A stretch of 64,000 nt of DNA from Acidobacteriota bacterium. Lineage in GTDB: Bacteria > Acidobacteriota > Thermoanaerobaculia > Gp7-AA8. The stretch is from positions 416,001 to 480,000 of the forward strand of contig JAFATB010000006.1 in the NCBI GenBank assembly GCA_019244185.1. Reading direction: 5' to 3'. The stretch's first letter is position 1. Each line of letters starts with the position of its first letter. Below the pieces are notes generated by a model. It was given only the letters and a program-made list of their open reading frames with translations. It was not told the origin of the DNA and ran no database searches. The position numbers were made by a program, and so were the translations under genes. Below, piece after piece: positions 22,545 to 63,402 of the stretch.

Positions 22545-22629
22545 GGTTGATTCCTGCCATGTGTAGCTCATTGGGTAGAGCGCAGGACTGATAATCCTGG
22601 GGTAGCGGGTTCGAATCCCGCCACAACCA
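22545..22629 (+). tRNA. tRNA-Ile(GAT)-like RNA with defective or interrupted acceptor stem
   Basis: D arm GCTC/GAGC, anticodon arm CAGGA-CTGATAA-TCCTG, T arm GCGGG-TTCGAAT-CCCGC; 3' strand CACAACC pairs only 4 bp with the adjacent 5' strand; no encoded CCA. Confidence 0.75.
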
Positions 22630-60467: not shown

Positions 60468-60661
60468 TCGAATACTTCCGGTGGTGGTCTAGTTTGAACG
60501 CTGAGTCGTAACAGGCGGCACCGTGGCGGCGATGTCTGTCACGTTGAGGACTGCAAGGCACTCCGTTCGGCAAGCCGTTTTGCAGACGACTCCCTCCGTC
60601 AAAGCCTTCCTCTCCCCGCGAAGTTTCCGCCACATCGCTGCCGAAGCGCACAGTATCGCCG

Positions 60662-61538
60662 CTACGCAACTGCGGCAAGCGTCCACAAATCGAGCGCGAG
60701 AAGGTCACTCGCCTTCCAAACATAGTCCGTCAGGCCAGCGGCCATCGCCGGAGTCTTCCCACCGAGCGACTTGTGCTTGCGGCAGAAGTTGTAGAAGACG
60801 ACGGTGATGGCGAGCATGAAGACGTGGTTGTCGAGCTTCTTCGAGAAGCCATTCGTGAGGCGCGTGAAGCGGCGGTTCTGCATCCGCAGCGTGAGGTTCC
60901 ACCGCTCCATGAACGACGTGGATATGTGCTTCGTGATCGGCATCCCGAACGTCGGTCGCTTCTCTACGGCCAGCAGGCGGCCGGGCGAGTATCTACTGGC
61001 CGCACTCCTCGGACTTGTTCCGGTGACCGGCTTACTGTTCGCGTACGTCTTCACCACCTCGGCATGATCGGCCTCGCCGTAGCGGAAGTTCTTCACGATG
61101 GCTTCGAGGTACACGGATAGGCCGTCGGTCGAAATCTGAAGGCGCATCGTCGTGCGGCATCTTCAGATCGCGAATCAGAGCGTCGGCCGCTTCCTGATTC
61201 CGGTCACTCACCATCCACGAGATGAGGAGCTTCGAGTCGGCGTCAAGCGCCGTCCACGTCCAGAGCGAGCCGTAACCTTCCTTGCCCTTCAGATCGGCCG
61301 GAACGTTCTTCTCCTTCGCGTAGCAGAACGACCAGACCTCATCACACTGCACGCGCAGCGTCGGCAGGTAGCGCACCTGAGCGTCATGGAAGCGAAGGCA
61401 CGCTTGACCAATCTCGCGGATGAGACTCAGCACCGTCATCTTCGCGGCGCCGGTCATGCGGCAGGTCGAGGCAATGGAGTTGCCTTCGATGAGGGCGGTC
61501 AGGATCTGCGCGCGCTTCGCAGGTGACAGCTTGTTCAT
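60662..61538 (-). pseudogene. IS1-family DDE transposase, frameshift near 61156
   Basis: HTH N-terminus, QCDEVW, ISTDG, STSFMERWNLTLR...RFTRLTNGFSKK; deleting one C in ATGCCGCACG fuses the two ORFs. Confidence 0.85.
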
Positions 61539-61544
61539 AACTAC

Positions 61545-61587
61545 AATATATGCTTGAGGGGTCAAGCTGTCAATGCTTGAGGGGTCA
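61545..61587 (-). promoter_or_regulatory. Leaderless transposase promoter with 15-bp direct repeats
   Basis: TTGACA-N17-TATATT-N6-ATG; ATGCTTGAGGGGTCA at 61550 and 61573. Confidence 0.75.
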
Positions 61588-61719
61588 CGCTACGCTATGT
61601 AACATGCCGGTCGGACGCGGATTACCGAAAGTAAGTTTGGTGTTGACCTGACGCGTAGACGGACCTACATTGTTACTGATAGCACCATGCTATCGGAGTC
61701 TTTTCTCAGTATCAAAAAG

Positions 61720-61793
61720 TGGCCCCGGCGGGGATCCAACCCGCGACATCCGCGTTAGCAGCGCGGCGTTCTGTGCACCTGAACTACGGGGCC
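61720..61793 (-). tRNA. Atypical tRNA, anticodon GCT (Ser) on a short-variable-loop body
   Basis: GGCCCCG/CGGGGCC, GTTC/GAAC, CCGCG-CTGCTAA-CGCGG, GCGGG-TTGGATC-CCCGC, A73. Confidence 0.8.
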
Positions 61794-61807
61794 ATAGGTG
61801 GTAAAGG

Positions 61808-61878
61808 TGGAGGTAGAGGGAATCGAACCCTCGGCCAGGGGTCCAAAGTCCGTAGCCGGGAAACCATCCACTACCCCC
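61808..61878 (-). tRNA. Atypical tRNA-like gene, anticodon TTG (Gln), G3:U70
   Basis: GGGGGTA/TACCTCC, mini D arm GGA-TGGTT-TCC, loop CTTTGGA, GAGGG-TTCGATT-CCCTC, A73. Confidence 0.7.
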
Positions 61879-61899
61879 ACGTTAGGGTTATCTGGCGCC

Positions 61900-62472
61900 T
61901 CACTCGTTAGCAGCGGGTGAGGCGTTTTCTTCTTCGTGCTCTTCATCATCATTGGCGGGGTCGTTGACTGCGCTAACGACTTCCGCTGCACCGCCCGCGG
62001 CACGCTTCTTCGTGCCCTTGCCACGCTTCAGGTGCGGGTAGAACTCGACCAAGCCGTAGTGTTCGTCAGGAAGTACCGCGACCTCGTACGTTGATCGCGC
62101 CATACGGACCTTCAGTTCACTCTCGTTGTCCACCTTGCAACCACCGCGACGAATGGCTTCCACAATCTCGCGGAACGGGCGCGCTTGCCCCCGTCGCTTC
62201 AGGTATCGCTTGGCGGCGTCGAGCCCGTCGAGGCCGTAATACTCGTCGGGCCGGATCGAGTAGCCTGACGCCCCGCTATCGGCAGTCGGCGCGTCCAAAC
62301 CGAAGAGTTGCGCGAGCGTACTCTTCGGTTGACCGACGATCTCCTCCAGTGCGTTAAGACCCTGCTGAAGCCGGAGCACTTCTGCCATGCTGGGGTCGGC
62401 TTTCATAGCCATAACTTTCTCGTCGATCTTCCTCTTTAGCTCCTCAGCGGCAGCCAAAATTGCATCACTCAT
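61900..62472 (-). CDS. Coiled-coil plus winged-helix-like protein with acidic tail
   Basis: GAGGA RBS; AAKRYLKRRGQARPFREIVEAIRRGG...YGLVEFY pattern. Confidence 0.7.
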   Translation of the reverse strand: MSDAILAAAEELKRKIDEKVMAMKADPSMAEVLRLQQGLNALEEIVGQPKSTLAQLFGLDAPTADSGASGYSIRPDEYYGLDGLDAAKRYLKRRGQARPFREIVEAIRRGGCKVDNESELKVRMARSTYEVAVLPDEHYGLVEFYPHLKRGKGTKKRAAGGAAEVVSAVNDPANDDEEHEEENASPAANE

Positions 62473-62491
62473 TTGATGTTCCTCATGTCAG

Positions 62492-62526
62492 AACCCAAAT
62501 GTAGGCTCGCGATTTTGGGTTGTCAA
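62492..62526 (-). promoter_or_regulatory. Sigma70 promoter with inverted-repeat operator
   Basis: TTGACA-N17-TACATT; AACCCAAA...TTTGGGTT overlaps it. Confidence 0.7.
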
Positions 62527-62637
62527 TATCCGATCTCAAACAAAACTTCGCAAGTTTGAGGCGATTGTCGCGAGAGGAATCATGCGAGGAGGGCGTATTT
62601 AGGACGCTGCCGGATAGTTTATTGCAGTTTAGTTTTC

Positions 62638-62803
62638 CAGACGAGCGCGGTGTACTCGCCCGATGACCGCAAGACATGACAAGCGGCTGAAATTGGCCGC
62701 GCGCTGAAGTCGCGCTGACGGAGGCATTTGCGACTTCGTTTCTGCGAAGTTCAGGCGCTTGTCATTTCTTGCGGTCATCGGGCGAGTACACCGCGCCTGT
62801 CTG
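62638..62803. repeat. Long near-perfect inverted repeat (hairpin)
   Basis: Arms of about 60 bp with about 6 mismatches, plus inner GAAGTCGC/GCGACTTC stem. Confidence 0.9.
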
Positions 62804-62821
62804 AAGGTGTTTTGACGAGTG

Positions 62822-63088
62822 TTATTTCCGACGCTTTTGCCAACGGGCGGTAGCGGCTTTCTTTGCAATCTCGGAGCGTTTTTTCGCGCTCAACGCAACG
62901 GCCCGAGCCGGCCCGCCGATCCTCCCGCCGATACGCCCGAACGCGGCGGCGGCAGCCCGCATCTCGTCCGTGATCTCGACCGGCGGCTCTTCCTCGGATT
63001 TCTCCGCGATCGTCTCCATGATACGGACGGCAGCCTGCGCCTCATCCTCGCGCTTCTTCCTCGGCTTCGTCCTTGACCCCTTAGGCAT
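62822..63088 (-). CDS. Small basic IS-associated protein
   Basis: AAAAFGRIGGRIGGPARAVALSAKKRSEIAKKAATARW; preceded by TATACT-N6-ATG. Confidence 0.85.
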   Translation of the reverse strand: MPKGSRTKPRKKREDEAQAAVRIMETIAEKSEEEPPVEITDEMRAAAAAFGRIGGRIGGPARAVALSAKKRSEIAKKAATARWQKRRK

Positions 63089-63106: not shown

Positions 63107-63337
63107 CTACCCGAGCTTGTCGAACGGCCGGAACAACTCCGACGGCGGAACGTCGAGCGCATCCGCCAGCTTGAGGATGTTGTCGAGACAAGGGTTCCGG
63201 TAGCCGCGCTCCACATCACTCACGTAGTTGCGATTCAGTCCGGCGAGTTCCGCGAGCCGCGTCTGTGAGAGTGAACGCTTCGCGCGCAGCTCGCGCAGGT
63301 GCGCGGCGAACCTCTCTCGCGGCGAAGCGGCGATCAT
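63107..63337 (-). CDS. XRE family HTH regulator
   Basis: LSQTRLAELAGLNRNYVSDVERGYRNPCLDNILKLADALDV. Confidence 0.9.
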   Translation of the reverse strand: MIAASPRERFAAHLRELRAKRSLSQTRLAELAGLNRNYVSDVERGYRNPCLDNILKLADALDVPPSELFRPFDKLG

Positions 63338-63402
63338 GCTTTGAGTGTGACGCTTTCGCGCGCTTAACCAACCAGCTATGAGTGTCACATGCTATGCGTG
63401 TT

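What the first reader, a model, noticed from the sequence alone, without database searches (positions are those of the whole stretch)
61720..61793. Ser-anticodon tRNA on a class I body with an apparent compensatory D/T-loop swap
Seen: all four stems pair perfectly, anticodon GCT, 5-nt variable loop, A73. The T loop is TTGGATC (G at invariant C56) and the D loop AGGTGCACA has GC where GG is expected. Inference: G19-C56 has flipped to C19-G56, which implies selection on the L-shaped fold rather than decay; if charged by a non-Ser synthetase it would misread AGC/AGU. D-loop numbering is my alignment.
Basis: partly seen in the sequence, partly recalled or inferred. Interest (0 to 1): 0.78.

Follow-up and report, generated by a model that had tools for sequence, protein, structure and literature searches.

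The report
Arg-like tRNA with serine anticodon
This is a real extra tRNA gene beside a broken jumping-gene enzyme: it has the build of an arginine tRNA but a serine anticodon, belongs to a large family apparently not yet described, and its two odd loop bases are a matched swap that keeps the tRNA's L shape.

Summary
Window 61720-61793 (minus strand) is a 74-nt class I tRNA with anticodon GCT, 21 of 21 Watson-Crick stem pairs, a 5-nt variable loop, A73, D loop AGGTGCACA and T loop TTGGATC.

It is additional to the host's normal class II tRNA-Ser(GCU). It lies 181 nt upstream of a frameshifted IS1-like transposase gene.

It belongs to a large family of tRNA-Arg-like tRNAs with ACU or GCU anticodons, found in Thermoanaerobaculia genomes, soil metagenomes and viral contigs.

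The 19:56 swap is supported. Among 91 distinct members the pair is G:C 83, A:U 4, C:G 3 and G:U 1, with no clear mismatch; 0 of 100,000 shuffles reach this. The nearest relative has canonical GG/TTC loops.

A20, C35 and U36 point to ArgRS, so a Ser-to-Arg reading of AGY codons is plausible but untested.

In the window's clade the adjacent transposase genes are enriched in the rare AGT codon: 89 AGT to 23 AGC. The amino acid inserted could not be inferred.

This local copy may be a relic.

The parts
61720..61793 (-). Class I tRNA, anticodon GCU, C19:G56 elbow pair, A20, A73, no encoded CCA
   Evidence: ARAGORN; Rfam tRNA 60.7 bits; family model R1 82.7 bits
61805..61878 (-). 74-nt mini tmRNA-like / tRNA-like element 11 nt upstream of the tRNA. 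It has a 7-bp acceptor stem with G3:U70, a central hairpin, a T arm and an ACC tail, but no mRNA-like domain
   Evidence: Rfam tmRNA 39.6 bits, below the gathering score of 47; only the two ends of the model match. It differs in sequence from the host's real tmRNA. Similar elements lie upstream of homologous transposases in L022, L023, L024, L037, L059 and L072
61894..61926 (.). 15-bp hairpin overlapping the end of the upstream ORF. It is terminator-like only when read on the + strand
   Evidence: a similar hairpin precedes the mini element in L022
61900..62472 (-). 190-aa ORF of unknown function with an acidic C-terminus, in the same orientation as the two RNA genes and upstream of them
   Evidence: no family in Pfam, PHROGs, PADLOC or NCBIfam; atlas hits are hypothetical proteins only
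62498..62526 (-). Promoter-like site (TTGACA-17-TACATT) upstream of the 190-aa ORF; a possible source of a transcript that runs on into the two RNA genes (inference)
61545..61573 (-). Promoter-like site (TTGACA-17-TATATT) for the transposase, overlapped by two copies of a 15-nt direct repeat at 61550-61564 and 61573-61587; conserved in homologous loci
   Evidence: the same motif is seen across loci
61158..61538 (-). N-terminal part (residues 1-127) of an IS1-like DDE transposase pseudogene
   Evidence: 73% identity to the intact L005 protein; NCBIfam IS1 family 54 bits, below its cut-off of 100
60671..61177 (-). C-terminal part of the same transposase in another frame, with 2 in-frame TGA. The two parts together hold 7 AGT and 0 AGC codons
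62822..63388 (-). Xre-type HTH gene (63107-63388) followed by an 88-aa ORF (62822-63088), same orientation and further upstream; a possible toxin-antitoxin-like or regulator pair (inference)
   Evidence: Pfam HTH_3 3e-16; PADLOC 'control protein' 6e-20

Best explanation
The feature is a genuine tRNA-shaped RNA gene of a mobile-element-associated family descended from tRNA-Arg, most like tRNA-Arg(UCU). In this family position 34 has become A or G, so the anticodon (ACU or GCU) matches serine AGY codons, while the arginine identity positions (A20, C35, U36, and here A73) are kept. The family is under selection for the L-shaped fold. All four stems covary, and the elbow pair 19:56 has switched several times to C:G (as here) or A:U by paired changes. 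The most likely mechanism, inferred and not shown, is this: the single host ArgRS charges it with arginine, and it decodes AGU (and AGC for the G34 form) on the ribosome. In the Thermoanaerobaculia clade to which the window belongs, the tRNA forms the 5' end of a roughly 1.06-kb unit consisting of tRNA, promoter with operator repeats, and an IS1-like transposase gene. That gene is strongly and specifically enriched in AGT, otherwise one of the rarest codons of these GC-rich hosts. This suggests the element supplies a decoder for codons in its own gene. In this window the transposase is broken, so the tRNA is either a still-intact remnant or has been kept for another reason.
For: The gene is real.

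It is an extra tRNA. The genome has a normal 94-nt class II tRNA-Ser(GCU), one SerRS and one ArgRS.

It belongs to a family linked to a transposase. ARAGORN finds a class-I-size ACT or GCT tRNA 100-250 nt upstream of the transposase homologue, on the same strand, in 11 of 30 loci from 55 of 301 genomes with a hit. Three copies in genome G107 share homology that starts within 0-3 nt of tRNA base 1 and ends at the transposase stop codon.

The ancestry is arginine. A covariance model built only from 14 family members scores each genome's housekeeping tRNA-Arg(UCU) at about 95 bits, above the window copy at 82.7 bits. For 78 of 91 members the best-matching tRNA of this genome is an Arg isoacceptor. 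The window's acceptor stem plus A73 is identical to the host tRNA-Arg(CCU).

The identity positions are kept. C35, U36, A37 and A38 are invariant and A20 is at least 90% conserved in the 14 transposase-anchored members. A20 is present in about 87 of 91 members after two by-eye corrections. Arg identity is given as A20, C35, position 36 and A/G73, and Ser identity as the variable arm, in passages read from PMC9976931.

The fold is selected. 19:56 is G:C 83, A:U 4, C:G 3, G:U 1, and 0 of 100,000 shuffles reach this. More C:G and A:U cases occur in viral contigs. An A54:U58 swap occurs in L017 and L186.

Codon use has co-adapted. In 11 clade genes AGT is 89 against AGC 23, whereas other Y-ending two-codon boxes have 148 T to 459 C (odds ratio 12, Fisher p 1.8e-28). 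In 17 homologues without a tRNA, AGT is 5 against AGC 88. Genome-wide, AGT is 1.19 and AGC 16.07 per 1000 codons. The window's remnant has 7 AGT and 0 AGC. AGT is kept in 10-11 of 11 genes at three alignment columns.

There is a hint of Arg. At column 38, in the HTH region, all 17 outgroup proteins have K or R, while 6 clade genes, L026 and the window have AGT.
Against: Charging by ArgRS and use in translation are untested. No run on record as RNA was available.

A Codetta-like test gives no clear amino acid for AGT: best S -10.4, T -11.0, Q -11.4, K -12.1. All 11 control codons recover their standard meaning.

Column 116 is an invariant Gly in 16 of 17 outgroup proteins, which fits Ser better than Arg.

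The AGT enrichment is specific to one clade. Of 14 IS1-like genes downstream of NCU tRNAs in metagenome contigs, only about 2 have more AGT than AGC.

The window's G34 form would also read AGC, a common codon (16 per 1000), so efficient Arg insertion should be harmful.

The counts across related genes are not independent.

No promoter for the tRNA was identified. CCA is not encoded. The adjacent transposase is broken. The locus was not found in the 34 other genomes of the genus searched.

No inverted repeats or target duplications define the unit.

The window copy's best-matching host tRNA is Asp, with Arg second to fourth.
Confidence: 0.55

Rival explanations
1. Relic in this genome. The family is or was functional, but this copy is a leftover of a dead element and does nothing now. 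Its perfect stems only reflect the short time since inactivation.
For: The adjacent transposase has a frameshift and 2 in-frame TGA. No CCA is encoded, although the host's own tRNAs encode it. The locus lies in a lower-GC stretch, 0.60 against about 0.66. It was not found in the other 34 same-genus genomes searched. A 74-nt gene would collect few mutations in the time a roughly 880-nt gene collects three disabling ones (inference).
Against: 21 of 21 stem pairs are intact, and the rare C19:G56 state is a completed double change relative to L026. Several other family members also lack encoded CCA. The upstream mini tmRNA-like gene and the promoter/operator repeats are also intact.
Confidence: 0.35
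2. A tRNA-shaped RNA that does not decode. It would be kept as an RNase P/Z processing signal or insulator that cuts read-through transcripts from the upstream operon away from the transposase mRNA. Alternatively it would act as a decoy or partner for a tRNA-directed toxin of the neighbouring toxin-antitoxin or defence genes.
For: The tRNA sits at the very 5' end of the repeated unit with no room for its own promoter, often 4-20 nt after a hairpin. Toxin-antitoxin or defence operons lie upstream in the same orientation: RosmerTA RmrT+RmrA in G012 and G248, RmrA also in G147 and, by its C-terminal peptide read by eye, G159; a Gp49-like/HTH/SecB-like trio in G107. 24 of 91 members have C55 instead of the near-universal U55. 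Mukai et al. found irregular acidobacterial tRNAs near toxin-antitoxin systems, and some were charged but not used in translation (PMC5389517, section 16 read).
Against: A pure processing signal needs neither an invariant C35-U36-A37-A38 anticodon loop nor A20. It also does not explain the AGT-specific codon bias of the adjacent gene.
Confidence: 0.25
3. An ordinary serine supplement. The tRNA is charged with Ser despite its class I body and simply speeds decoding of rare AGU codons in the element's gene, as phage-borne tRNAs do.
For: Most AGT columns align with S, T, N, A or G in relatives. S is nominally the best of the poor scores. This would make the G34 form harmless.
Against: Serine identity rests primarily on the long variable arm (PMC9976931, passages read), and the arm is absent here. 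There is only one, standard SerRS. If AGT and AGC both mean Ser, the strict retention of T at the third position is hard to explain. A20 conservation would be unexplained.
Confidence: 0.08
4. Chance cloverleaf or tRNA-finder false positive.
For: ARAGORN lists several evident false positives inside GC-rich coding sequence of this genome. The fold energy z-score is only -1.31.
Against: Rfam scores it 60.7 bits against a gathering score of 29. There are dozens of homologues with compensatory changes.
Confidence: 0.01

Closest known systems
tRNA-ProX (tRNAProA/N/T), the dual-identity mistranslating tRNAs of Streptomyces and Kitasatospora (review PMC11415595, sections 17, 18 and 23 read or seen as passages)
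   Same: The body and identity elements belong to one amino acid and the anticodon to another. A34 anticodons read U-ending codons that are rare in GC-rich soil bacteria. Both are extra genes beside a complete canonical set.
   Different: ProX tRNAs come with a dedicated synthetase (ProRSx), because ProRS reads the anticodon. Here the changed base is position 34; position 34 is not among the arginine identity elements listed in PMC9976931, so the single host ArgRS could suffice, and no extra ArgRS or SerRS was found. The link to an IS1-like transposase and its AGT-rich gene has no counterpart in what I read.
Irregular and allo-tRNAs of Acidobacteria (Mukai et al. 2017, PMC5389517; abstract, passages and section 16 read)
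   Same: The phylum is the same. Both are non-canonical tRNAs with mismatched anticodons near toxin-antitoxin systems and transposon-related genes, sometimes as polycistrons of odd tRNAs. That paper mentions one GCU-anticodon tRNA.
   Different: Allo-tRNAs have 8/4 or 9/3 acceptor/T branches and a long variable arm; this one is 7/5 with a 5-nt variable loop. Their GCU example has an extra loop and U73. Their figures and supplements could not be seen, so some overlap with 'tRNA0/1/2' cannot be excluded.
Housekeeping tRNA-Arg(UCU) of the same bacteria
   Same: The overall sequence is alike: model R1 scores it about 95 bits. It shares A20, C35, U36, A37 and A38.
   Different: Position 34 is A or G instead of U, so the codons matched are AGY (Ser) and not AGR (Arg). 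In the window copy the elbow pair is C19:G56. The location is a mobile context rather than beside tRNA-Pro(UGG).
tRNA genes carried by phages and other mobile elements to match their own codon usage (recalled, no call)
   Same: A mobile element carries a tRNA whose anticodon matches codons over-represented in its own gene.
   Different: Those tRNAs keep a matching body and anticodon. Here they disagree, and the carrier is a roughly 1-kb transposase unit.

Membership tests
Bacterial tRNA-Ser (class II) | Long variable arm (stem-loop), the main SerRS determinant | tested here: not met
   5-nt variable loop. The host's own tRNA-Ser(GCU) is 94 nt with a long arm. The determinant is as given in PMC9976931.
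Bacterial tRNA-Ser (class II) | Anticodon for a Ser codon | tested here: met
   GCU. By itself the anticodon is not a SerRS determinant.
Elongator tRNA (Rfam RF00005) | Cloverleaf with 7/4/5/5 stems scoring above the gathering score | tested here: met
   60.7 bits against 29; 21 of 21 Watson-Crick pairs.
Elongator tRNA (Rfam RF00005) | Canonical elbow bases G18 G19 and U54 U55 C56 | tested here: not met
   C19 and G56. The pair itself is kept as a Watson-Crick pair and covaries in the family.
tRNA-Arg (ArgRS substrate) | A20 in the D loop | tested here: met
   In the D loop AGGTGCACA the bases are G18, C19, A20, by alignment to L026. A20 is present in about 87 of 91 members.
tRNA-Arg (ArgRS substrate) | C35 plus U36 or G36, and A or G at 73 | tested here: met
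   C35, U36 and A73. C35 and U36 are invariant in the 14 transposase-anchored members. N73 varies across the family: A 39, G 29, U 14, C 9.
tRNA-Arg (ArgRS substrate) | Anticodon that reads an Arg codon | tested here: not met
   GCU reads AGC/AGU.
tRNA-Arg (ArgRS substrate) | Aminoacylation with arginine | not testable with these tools
   Needs an in vitro charging assay.
Natural dual-identity (mistranslating) tRNAs | Identity elements of one amino acid combined with the anticodon of another | tested here: met
   (sequence level only).
Natural dual-identity (mistranslating) tRNAs | Demonstrated misincorporation, or a dedicated partner synthetase | tested here: not met
   No second ArgRS or SerRS in the genome. 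Misincorporation cannot be tested here.
allo-tRNA | 8/4 or 9/3 acceptor/T branch and a long variable arm | tested here: not met
   7/5 branch and a short variable loop.
tmRNA (the neighbouring element at 61805-61878) | tRNA-like domain with G3:U70, plus an mRNA-like domain with a tag reading frame and pseudoknots | tested here: not met
   Only the two ends of the model match, with 26 nt in place of 328. The score of 39.6 bits is below the gathering score of 47. The real tmRNA lies elsewhere in the genome.
IS1 family insertion sequence (the adjacent gene) | IS1-type DDE transposase | tested here: inconclusive
   NCBIfam IS1 E 1.6e-14 but 54 bits against a cut-off of 100. Pfam DDE_Tnp_IS1 23.5 bits against 24.1.
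IS1 family insertion sequence (the adjacent gene) | Terminal inverted repeats and target-site duplication | tested here: not met
   None seen at the ends of the three G107 copies, nor in a search for inverted 14-mers.

The most novel reading that the evidence does not exclude
A selfish element with a private codon. The roughly 1-kb unit carries an Arg-accepting tRNA(ACU/GCU) that reads AGU as arginine, and its own transposase gene is written with AGU at positions that need that reading (for example the K/R position in the HTH region). Active transposase would then be made only when the element's tRNA is transcribed. Because the tRNA has no promoter of its own and lies downstream of toxin-antitoxin or defence operons in the same orientation, this would happen on read-through from those operons under stress. 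That would be a natural, mobile, sense-codon recoding switch.
Probability: 0.18. Interest if true: 0.9.

Novelty: new variant of a known kind. Interest (0 to 1): 0.74.

Why it matters
Natural tRNAs whose body and anticodon disagree are very few; the review read here (PMC11415595) lists tRNA-ProX and a handful of Sec/Cys cases. They bear directly on how flexible the genetic code is.

This finding points to a large, easily sampled family. The family could use the ordinary ArgRS and would convert Ser AGY codons to Arg.

It also offers an unusually clear natural experiment on the tRNA elbow. The near-universal G19:C56 pair has been replaced by C:G or A:U several times, always by paired changes.

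The link between the tRNA and an AGT-rich transposase gene makes one question testable at the bench: can a mobile element reserve a rare host codon for itself?

If instead the RNA turns out to be a processing signal or a partner of a toxin-antitoxin system, it would still explain why irregular tRNAs cluster with such systems in Acidobacteria.

Tried and rejected
Phage origin. blastn of window 60500-63000 against 50,697 phage records found no match. The flanks are chromosomal genes (CheW, MCP, FHA, GGDEF, CsgG on one side; LexA, TsaD, ValRS on the other), so I dropped a prophage reading for this locus.

Ends of the mobile unit. The three G107 copies gave sharp homology limits but no inverted repeats or target duplications. 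Copies of the tRNA-less homologues within G147, G182 and G315 were too diverged to define ends: 0 of 3, 0 of 3 and 5 of 6 pairs aligned, mostly over the gene only. A search for an inverted 14-mer of the upstream 60 nt near the stop codon found nothing better than 11 of 14.

Which amino acid AGT stands for. The profile-based test gave no answer, and the column-by-column reading was mixed.

Generality of the AGT bias. It is not general outside the clade.

Expression. The look-up of sequencing runs listed 5 DNA holders and no RNA holder; read laying was therefore not used.

Upstream 190-aa ORF. No family was found in four libraries or the atlas. Its likeness to the ORF at the same position in L022 is weak: blastp at 1e-3 found nothing, and a single 20-residue stretch scored E 0.011. 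I therefore do not claim homology.

Extra synthetase. None was found.

Literature. Seven full-text searches turned up no paper on Arg-bodied tRNAs with AGY anticodons or on tRNAs at the ends of IS1-like units. That statement rests on these searches only. Supplements and figures of PMC5389517 could not be seen and may bear on it.

Names I give to two other downstream gene clusters in metagenome loci ('SWIM-like', 'IS1595-like') come from recalled motifs and were not tested.
Full report
**1. The observation.**
ARAGORN finds one tRNA in the window, at 61719-61793 on the minus strand, with anticodon gct. Rfam's tRNA model scores 61720-61793 (-) at 60.7 bits, against a gathering score of 29.

ARAGORN's bracket structure gives a 7-bp acceptor stem, 4-bp D stem, 5-bp anticodon stem and 5-bp T stem, all Watson-Crick. 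It also gives D loop AGGTGCACA, anticodon loop CTGCTAA, a 5-nt variable loop, T loop TTGGATC and A73.

CCA is not encoded, unlike in the genome's other real tRNAs. Fold energy alone is unremarkable (z -1.31).

**2. Place in the genome.**
The window is contig C6:416001-480000 of a 5.3-Mb, 26-contig assembly. A relative's record is titled Thermoanaerobaculia, so the organism probably belongs to that class of Acidobacteriota.

The genome has a normal 94-nt class II tRNA-Ser(GCU), a normal tmRNA, one SerRS and one ArgRS. This tRNA is therefore an extra one.

It lies in a stretch of lower GC, 0.60 against about 0.66, between ordinary chromosomal genes. Read on the minus strand, the order is:
- an Xre-type HTH gene;
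- an 88-aa ORF;
- a 190-aa ORF of unknown function;
- a hairpin;
- a 74-nt mini tmRNA-like element with G3:U70;
- the tRNA;
- a promoter-like site overlapped by two 15-nt direct repeats;
- an IS1-like transposase gene broken by a frameshift and two TGA codons.

The 201 nt holding both RNA genes were not found in the other 34 genomes of the genus that were searched.

**3. A family tied to a transposase.**
One weak hit (G012) was a 77-nt tRNA with anticodon ACT, upstream of an intact 292-aa homologue of the broken gene.

Searching that protein in 301 genomes of the class gave hits in 55. In 11 of the 30 loci returned, ARAGORN finds a class-I-size tRNA with anticodon ACT or GCT 100-250 nt upstream on the same strand.

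Genome G107 has three copies. Homology between them begins within 0-3 nt of tRNA base 1 and ends at the transposase stop codon, a unit of about 1,058 bp with unrelated flanks. I saw no inverted repeats or target duplications, so how the unit moves is unknown.

The protein is a distant IS1 relative: NCBIfam E 1.6e-14, but below the curated cut-off.

**4. Arginine ancestry and identity.**
A covariance model built only from 14 family members scores the housekeeping tRNA-Arg(UCU) of this and related genomes at about 95 bits. That is higher than the window copy itself, at 82.7 bits.

For 78 of 91 distinct members the most similar tRNA of this genome is an Arg isoacceptor. For the window copy the best match is tRNA-Asp, followed by three Arg tRNAs. 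Its acceptor stem plus A73 equals that of tRNA-Arg(CCU).

In the 14 members found through the transposase, that is, without selecting on the anticodon, C35, U36, A37 and A38 are invariant and A20 is at least 90% conserved.

In the wider set A20 is present in about 87 of 91 members. The script gave 85; I corrected WIN and L177 by eye. N73 varies freely.

The passages I read in PMC9976931 give A20, C35, position 36 and A/G73 as the arginine set, with A20 the main determinant for E. coli ArgRS. [quoted passage not shown] So ArgRS is the expected charging enzyme and SerRS is not. This is inference, not a result.

**5. The elbow pair.**
A pattern fixing only the D stem and the anticodon loop (with R at position 34) was scanned over metagenome contigs. 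The 80 loci returned held 75 class-I NCU tRNAs.

Together with the earlier loci this gives 91 distinct sequences. After correcting two D loops that my rule misread (WIN and L177), the 19:56 pair is:
- G:C in 83 (one of these, L176, is ambiguous);
- A:U in 4 (L015, L181, L177, L211);
- C:G in 3 (WIN, L220, L226);
- G:U in 1 (L201).

Ninety of 91 are Watson-Crick. None of 100,000 shuffles of the position-56 letters reaches that; the maximum was 84.

The shuffle ignores relatedness. However, most variant members have G:C-type nearest neighbours: WIN is nearest to L026 at 80%, and L177, L211 and L220 are also nearest to G:C types. Several independent double changes are therefore likely.

A scan of viral contigs added two more C:G cases (L305, L343) and two more A:U cases (L304, L336). 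It also gave one possible exception: L325 has C19 with a T loop that may put U at 56. These were read by eye.

Other tertiary positions also move in pairs: L017 and L186 have A54 with U58. Twenty-four of 91 members have C55.

Between WIN and L026, stem differences at 5:68, 10:25 and 11:24 are likewise compensated (read).

**6. Codon use of the adjacent gene.**
In the 11 transposase genes of the clade, AGT outnumbers AGC by 89 to 23. The clade is defined as at least 62% identity to the G012 protein, and two of its genes have no adjacent tRNA.

In the same genes the other Y-ending two-codon boxes have 148 T to 459 C (odds ratio 12, Fisher p 1.8e-28; the genes are related, so the p-value overstates the case). 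Seventeen tRNA-less homologues have 5 AGT to 88 AGC.

Genome-wide, AGT is 1.19 and AGC 16.07 per 1000 codons. The window's broken gene has 7 AGT and no AGC. AGT is retained in 10-11 of 11 genes at three alignment columns. The window keeps AGT at six of the clade's recurrent AGT columns (38, 116, 177, 187, 190 and 286).

This fits a decoder supplied for the element's own codons. What AGT encodes remains open:
- Column 38, in the HTH region, is K or R in all 17 outgroup proteins and AGT in 6 clade genes, L026 and the window. Columns 3 and 263 also alternate with K or R.
- Column 116 is a conserved Gly in the outgroup, and columns 5, 176 and 184 alternate with S, T and N.
- A profile-based test recovers the standard meaning of all 11 control codons but gives only negative scores for AGT.

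Outside the clade the bias is mostly absent.

**7. Surroundings elsewhere.**
Upstream of the tRNA and in the same orientation lie:
- a RosmerTA pair (RmrT weak, RmrA E 1e-110) in G012 and G248;
- RmrA in G147 and, judged by its C-terminal peptide, in G159;
- a Gp49-like / HTH / SecB-like trio in one G107 copy;
- HTH plus DUF3467 in L026.

Mini tmRNA-like elements with G3:U70 precede the tRNA or the transposase in the window and in L022, L023, L024, L037, L059 and L072. In L233 one lies between the tRNA and the transposase.

In other phyla the tRNA upstream of the homologous transposase has other unusual anticodon loops (L055, L059, L072).

In metagenome contigs 19 of the 75 NCU tRNAs had a same-strand homologue within 900 nt downstream. 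Among the 51 longest downstream ORFs drawn from the 59 tRNAs with at least 700 nt downstream, 15 fell in the transposase cluster. In viral contigs, 7 of the 40 tRNA rows carry a homologue on the contig; in 4 of them it is full-length or N-terminal and lies downstream on the same strand. The link to the transposase is therefore frequent but not obligatory.

**8. Mechanism and rivals.**
What is shown: a real, structurally constrained, tRNA-Arg-derived gene family with AGY anticodons in mobile contexts, and clade-specific AGT enrichment next to it.

What is inferred: charging by ArgRS, ribosomal decoding of AGU or AGC, and transcription by read-through from the upstream operon.

Against efficient Arg insertion by this G34 copy stands the abundance of AGC codons in the host.

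The rivals are a local relic, a non-decoding processing or toxin-antitoxin-linked RNA, and a Ser-charged supplement. They are weighed in their own sections of this report.

**9. Comparison with what is known.**
The closest cases I could read are:
- the tRNA-ProX family, which needs its own ProRSx (PMC11415595);
- the irregular acidobacterial tRNAs of Mukai et al., found near toxin-antitoxin and transposon genes (PMC5389517; review PMC7609411, passages).

Neither describes an Arg body with AGY anticodons, paired changes at the elbow, or a tRNA at the end of an IS1-like unit. My seven searches found no such paper, and supplements were closed.

**10. Caveats.**
- The metagenome and viral sets were selected by a pattern that fixes R34 and the D-stem sequence, so they say nothing about anticodon frequencies.
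- Assignments of 18, 19 and 20 use a simple rule with by-eye corrections.
- Related sequences are not independent.
- L022 and L291 come from an unpublished genome (G201).

Noticed in passing
window 61805-61878 (-): A 74-nt mini tmRNA-like element: G3:U70 acceptor stem, central hairpin, T arm and ACC tail, but no tag reading frame. It is not derived from the host tmRNA. Similar elements accompany homologous transposases in Acidobacteriota and Zixibacteria. G3:U70 suggests charging by AlaRS (recalled rule, not tested).
   Followed up: partly
window 22557-22629 (+): A second tRNA-like gene that ARAGORN misses. Rfam tRNA scores it 57.9 bits over model positions 4-67. The anticodon loop reads GAT (Ile), but the top three acceptor pairs do not pair, so it is a pseudo-tRNA or the remnant of an integration site.
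   Followed up: partly
L055:2241-2315, L059:547-621, L072:2346-2420: In Planctomycetota and Zixibacteria records the homologous transposase is preceded by other odd tRNAs: a GUU anticodon on an irregular D arm, a CGU anticodon with C33, and an 8-nt anticodon loop that ARAGORN reads as the four-base anticodon tccc.
   Followed up: no
L288:3940-5795, L289:190-2102, L020:232-1326, L042:3610-4959: Defence or toxin-antitoxin operons end just before the tRNA(ACU) and run in the same orientation: RosmerTA RmrT/RmrA, and a Gp49-like / HTH / SecB-like trio.
   Followed up: partly
G000:C6:199153-199951 (outside the window): A second, more decayed copy of the same transposase family (1 TAA, split into two pieces). 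ARAGORN finds no tRNA beside it.
   Followed up: partly
L006:1500-1545: A same-genus genome holds a fragment resembling a tRNA 3' half whose T loop reads TTGGAGC (G at 56), without a detectable full tRNA.
   Followed up: no
L295, L298, L317, L324, L330, L333 (viral contigs): In six AT-rich viral contigs a tRNA(ACU) lies 35 nt from the end of the same 405-aa ORF on the opposite strand. In L295 the top of the acceptor stem does not pair. I did not establish what the ORF is.
   Followed up: no
L284:2422-2582 and L285:1221-1511: Short tandem repeats directly downstream of tRNA-less transposase homologues in genome G315, seen as a ladder of blastn matches.
   Followed up: no
L165, L225, L229; L192, L238 (metagenome loci): Other recurring genes follow NCU tRNAs downstream: a 3-member cluster with a Cys-rich motif and a 2-member cluster with zinc-ribbon-like motifs. 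I would guess these are other transposase types; that rests on recalled resemblance and was not tested.
   Followed up: no
G000, several contigs: ARAGORN lists evident false positives inside GC-rich coding sequence: a permuted 'tmRNA*' overlapping the real tmRNA, and 80-95-nt 'tRNAs' without CCA.
   Followed up: no
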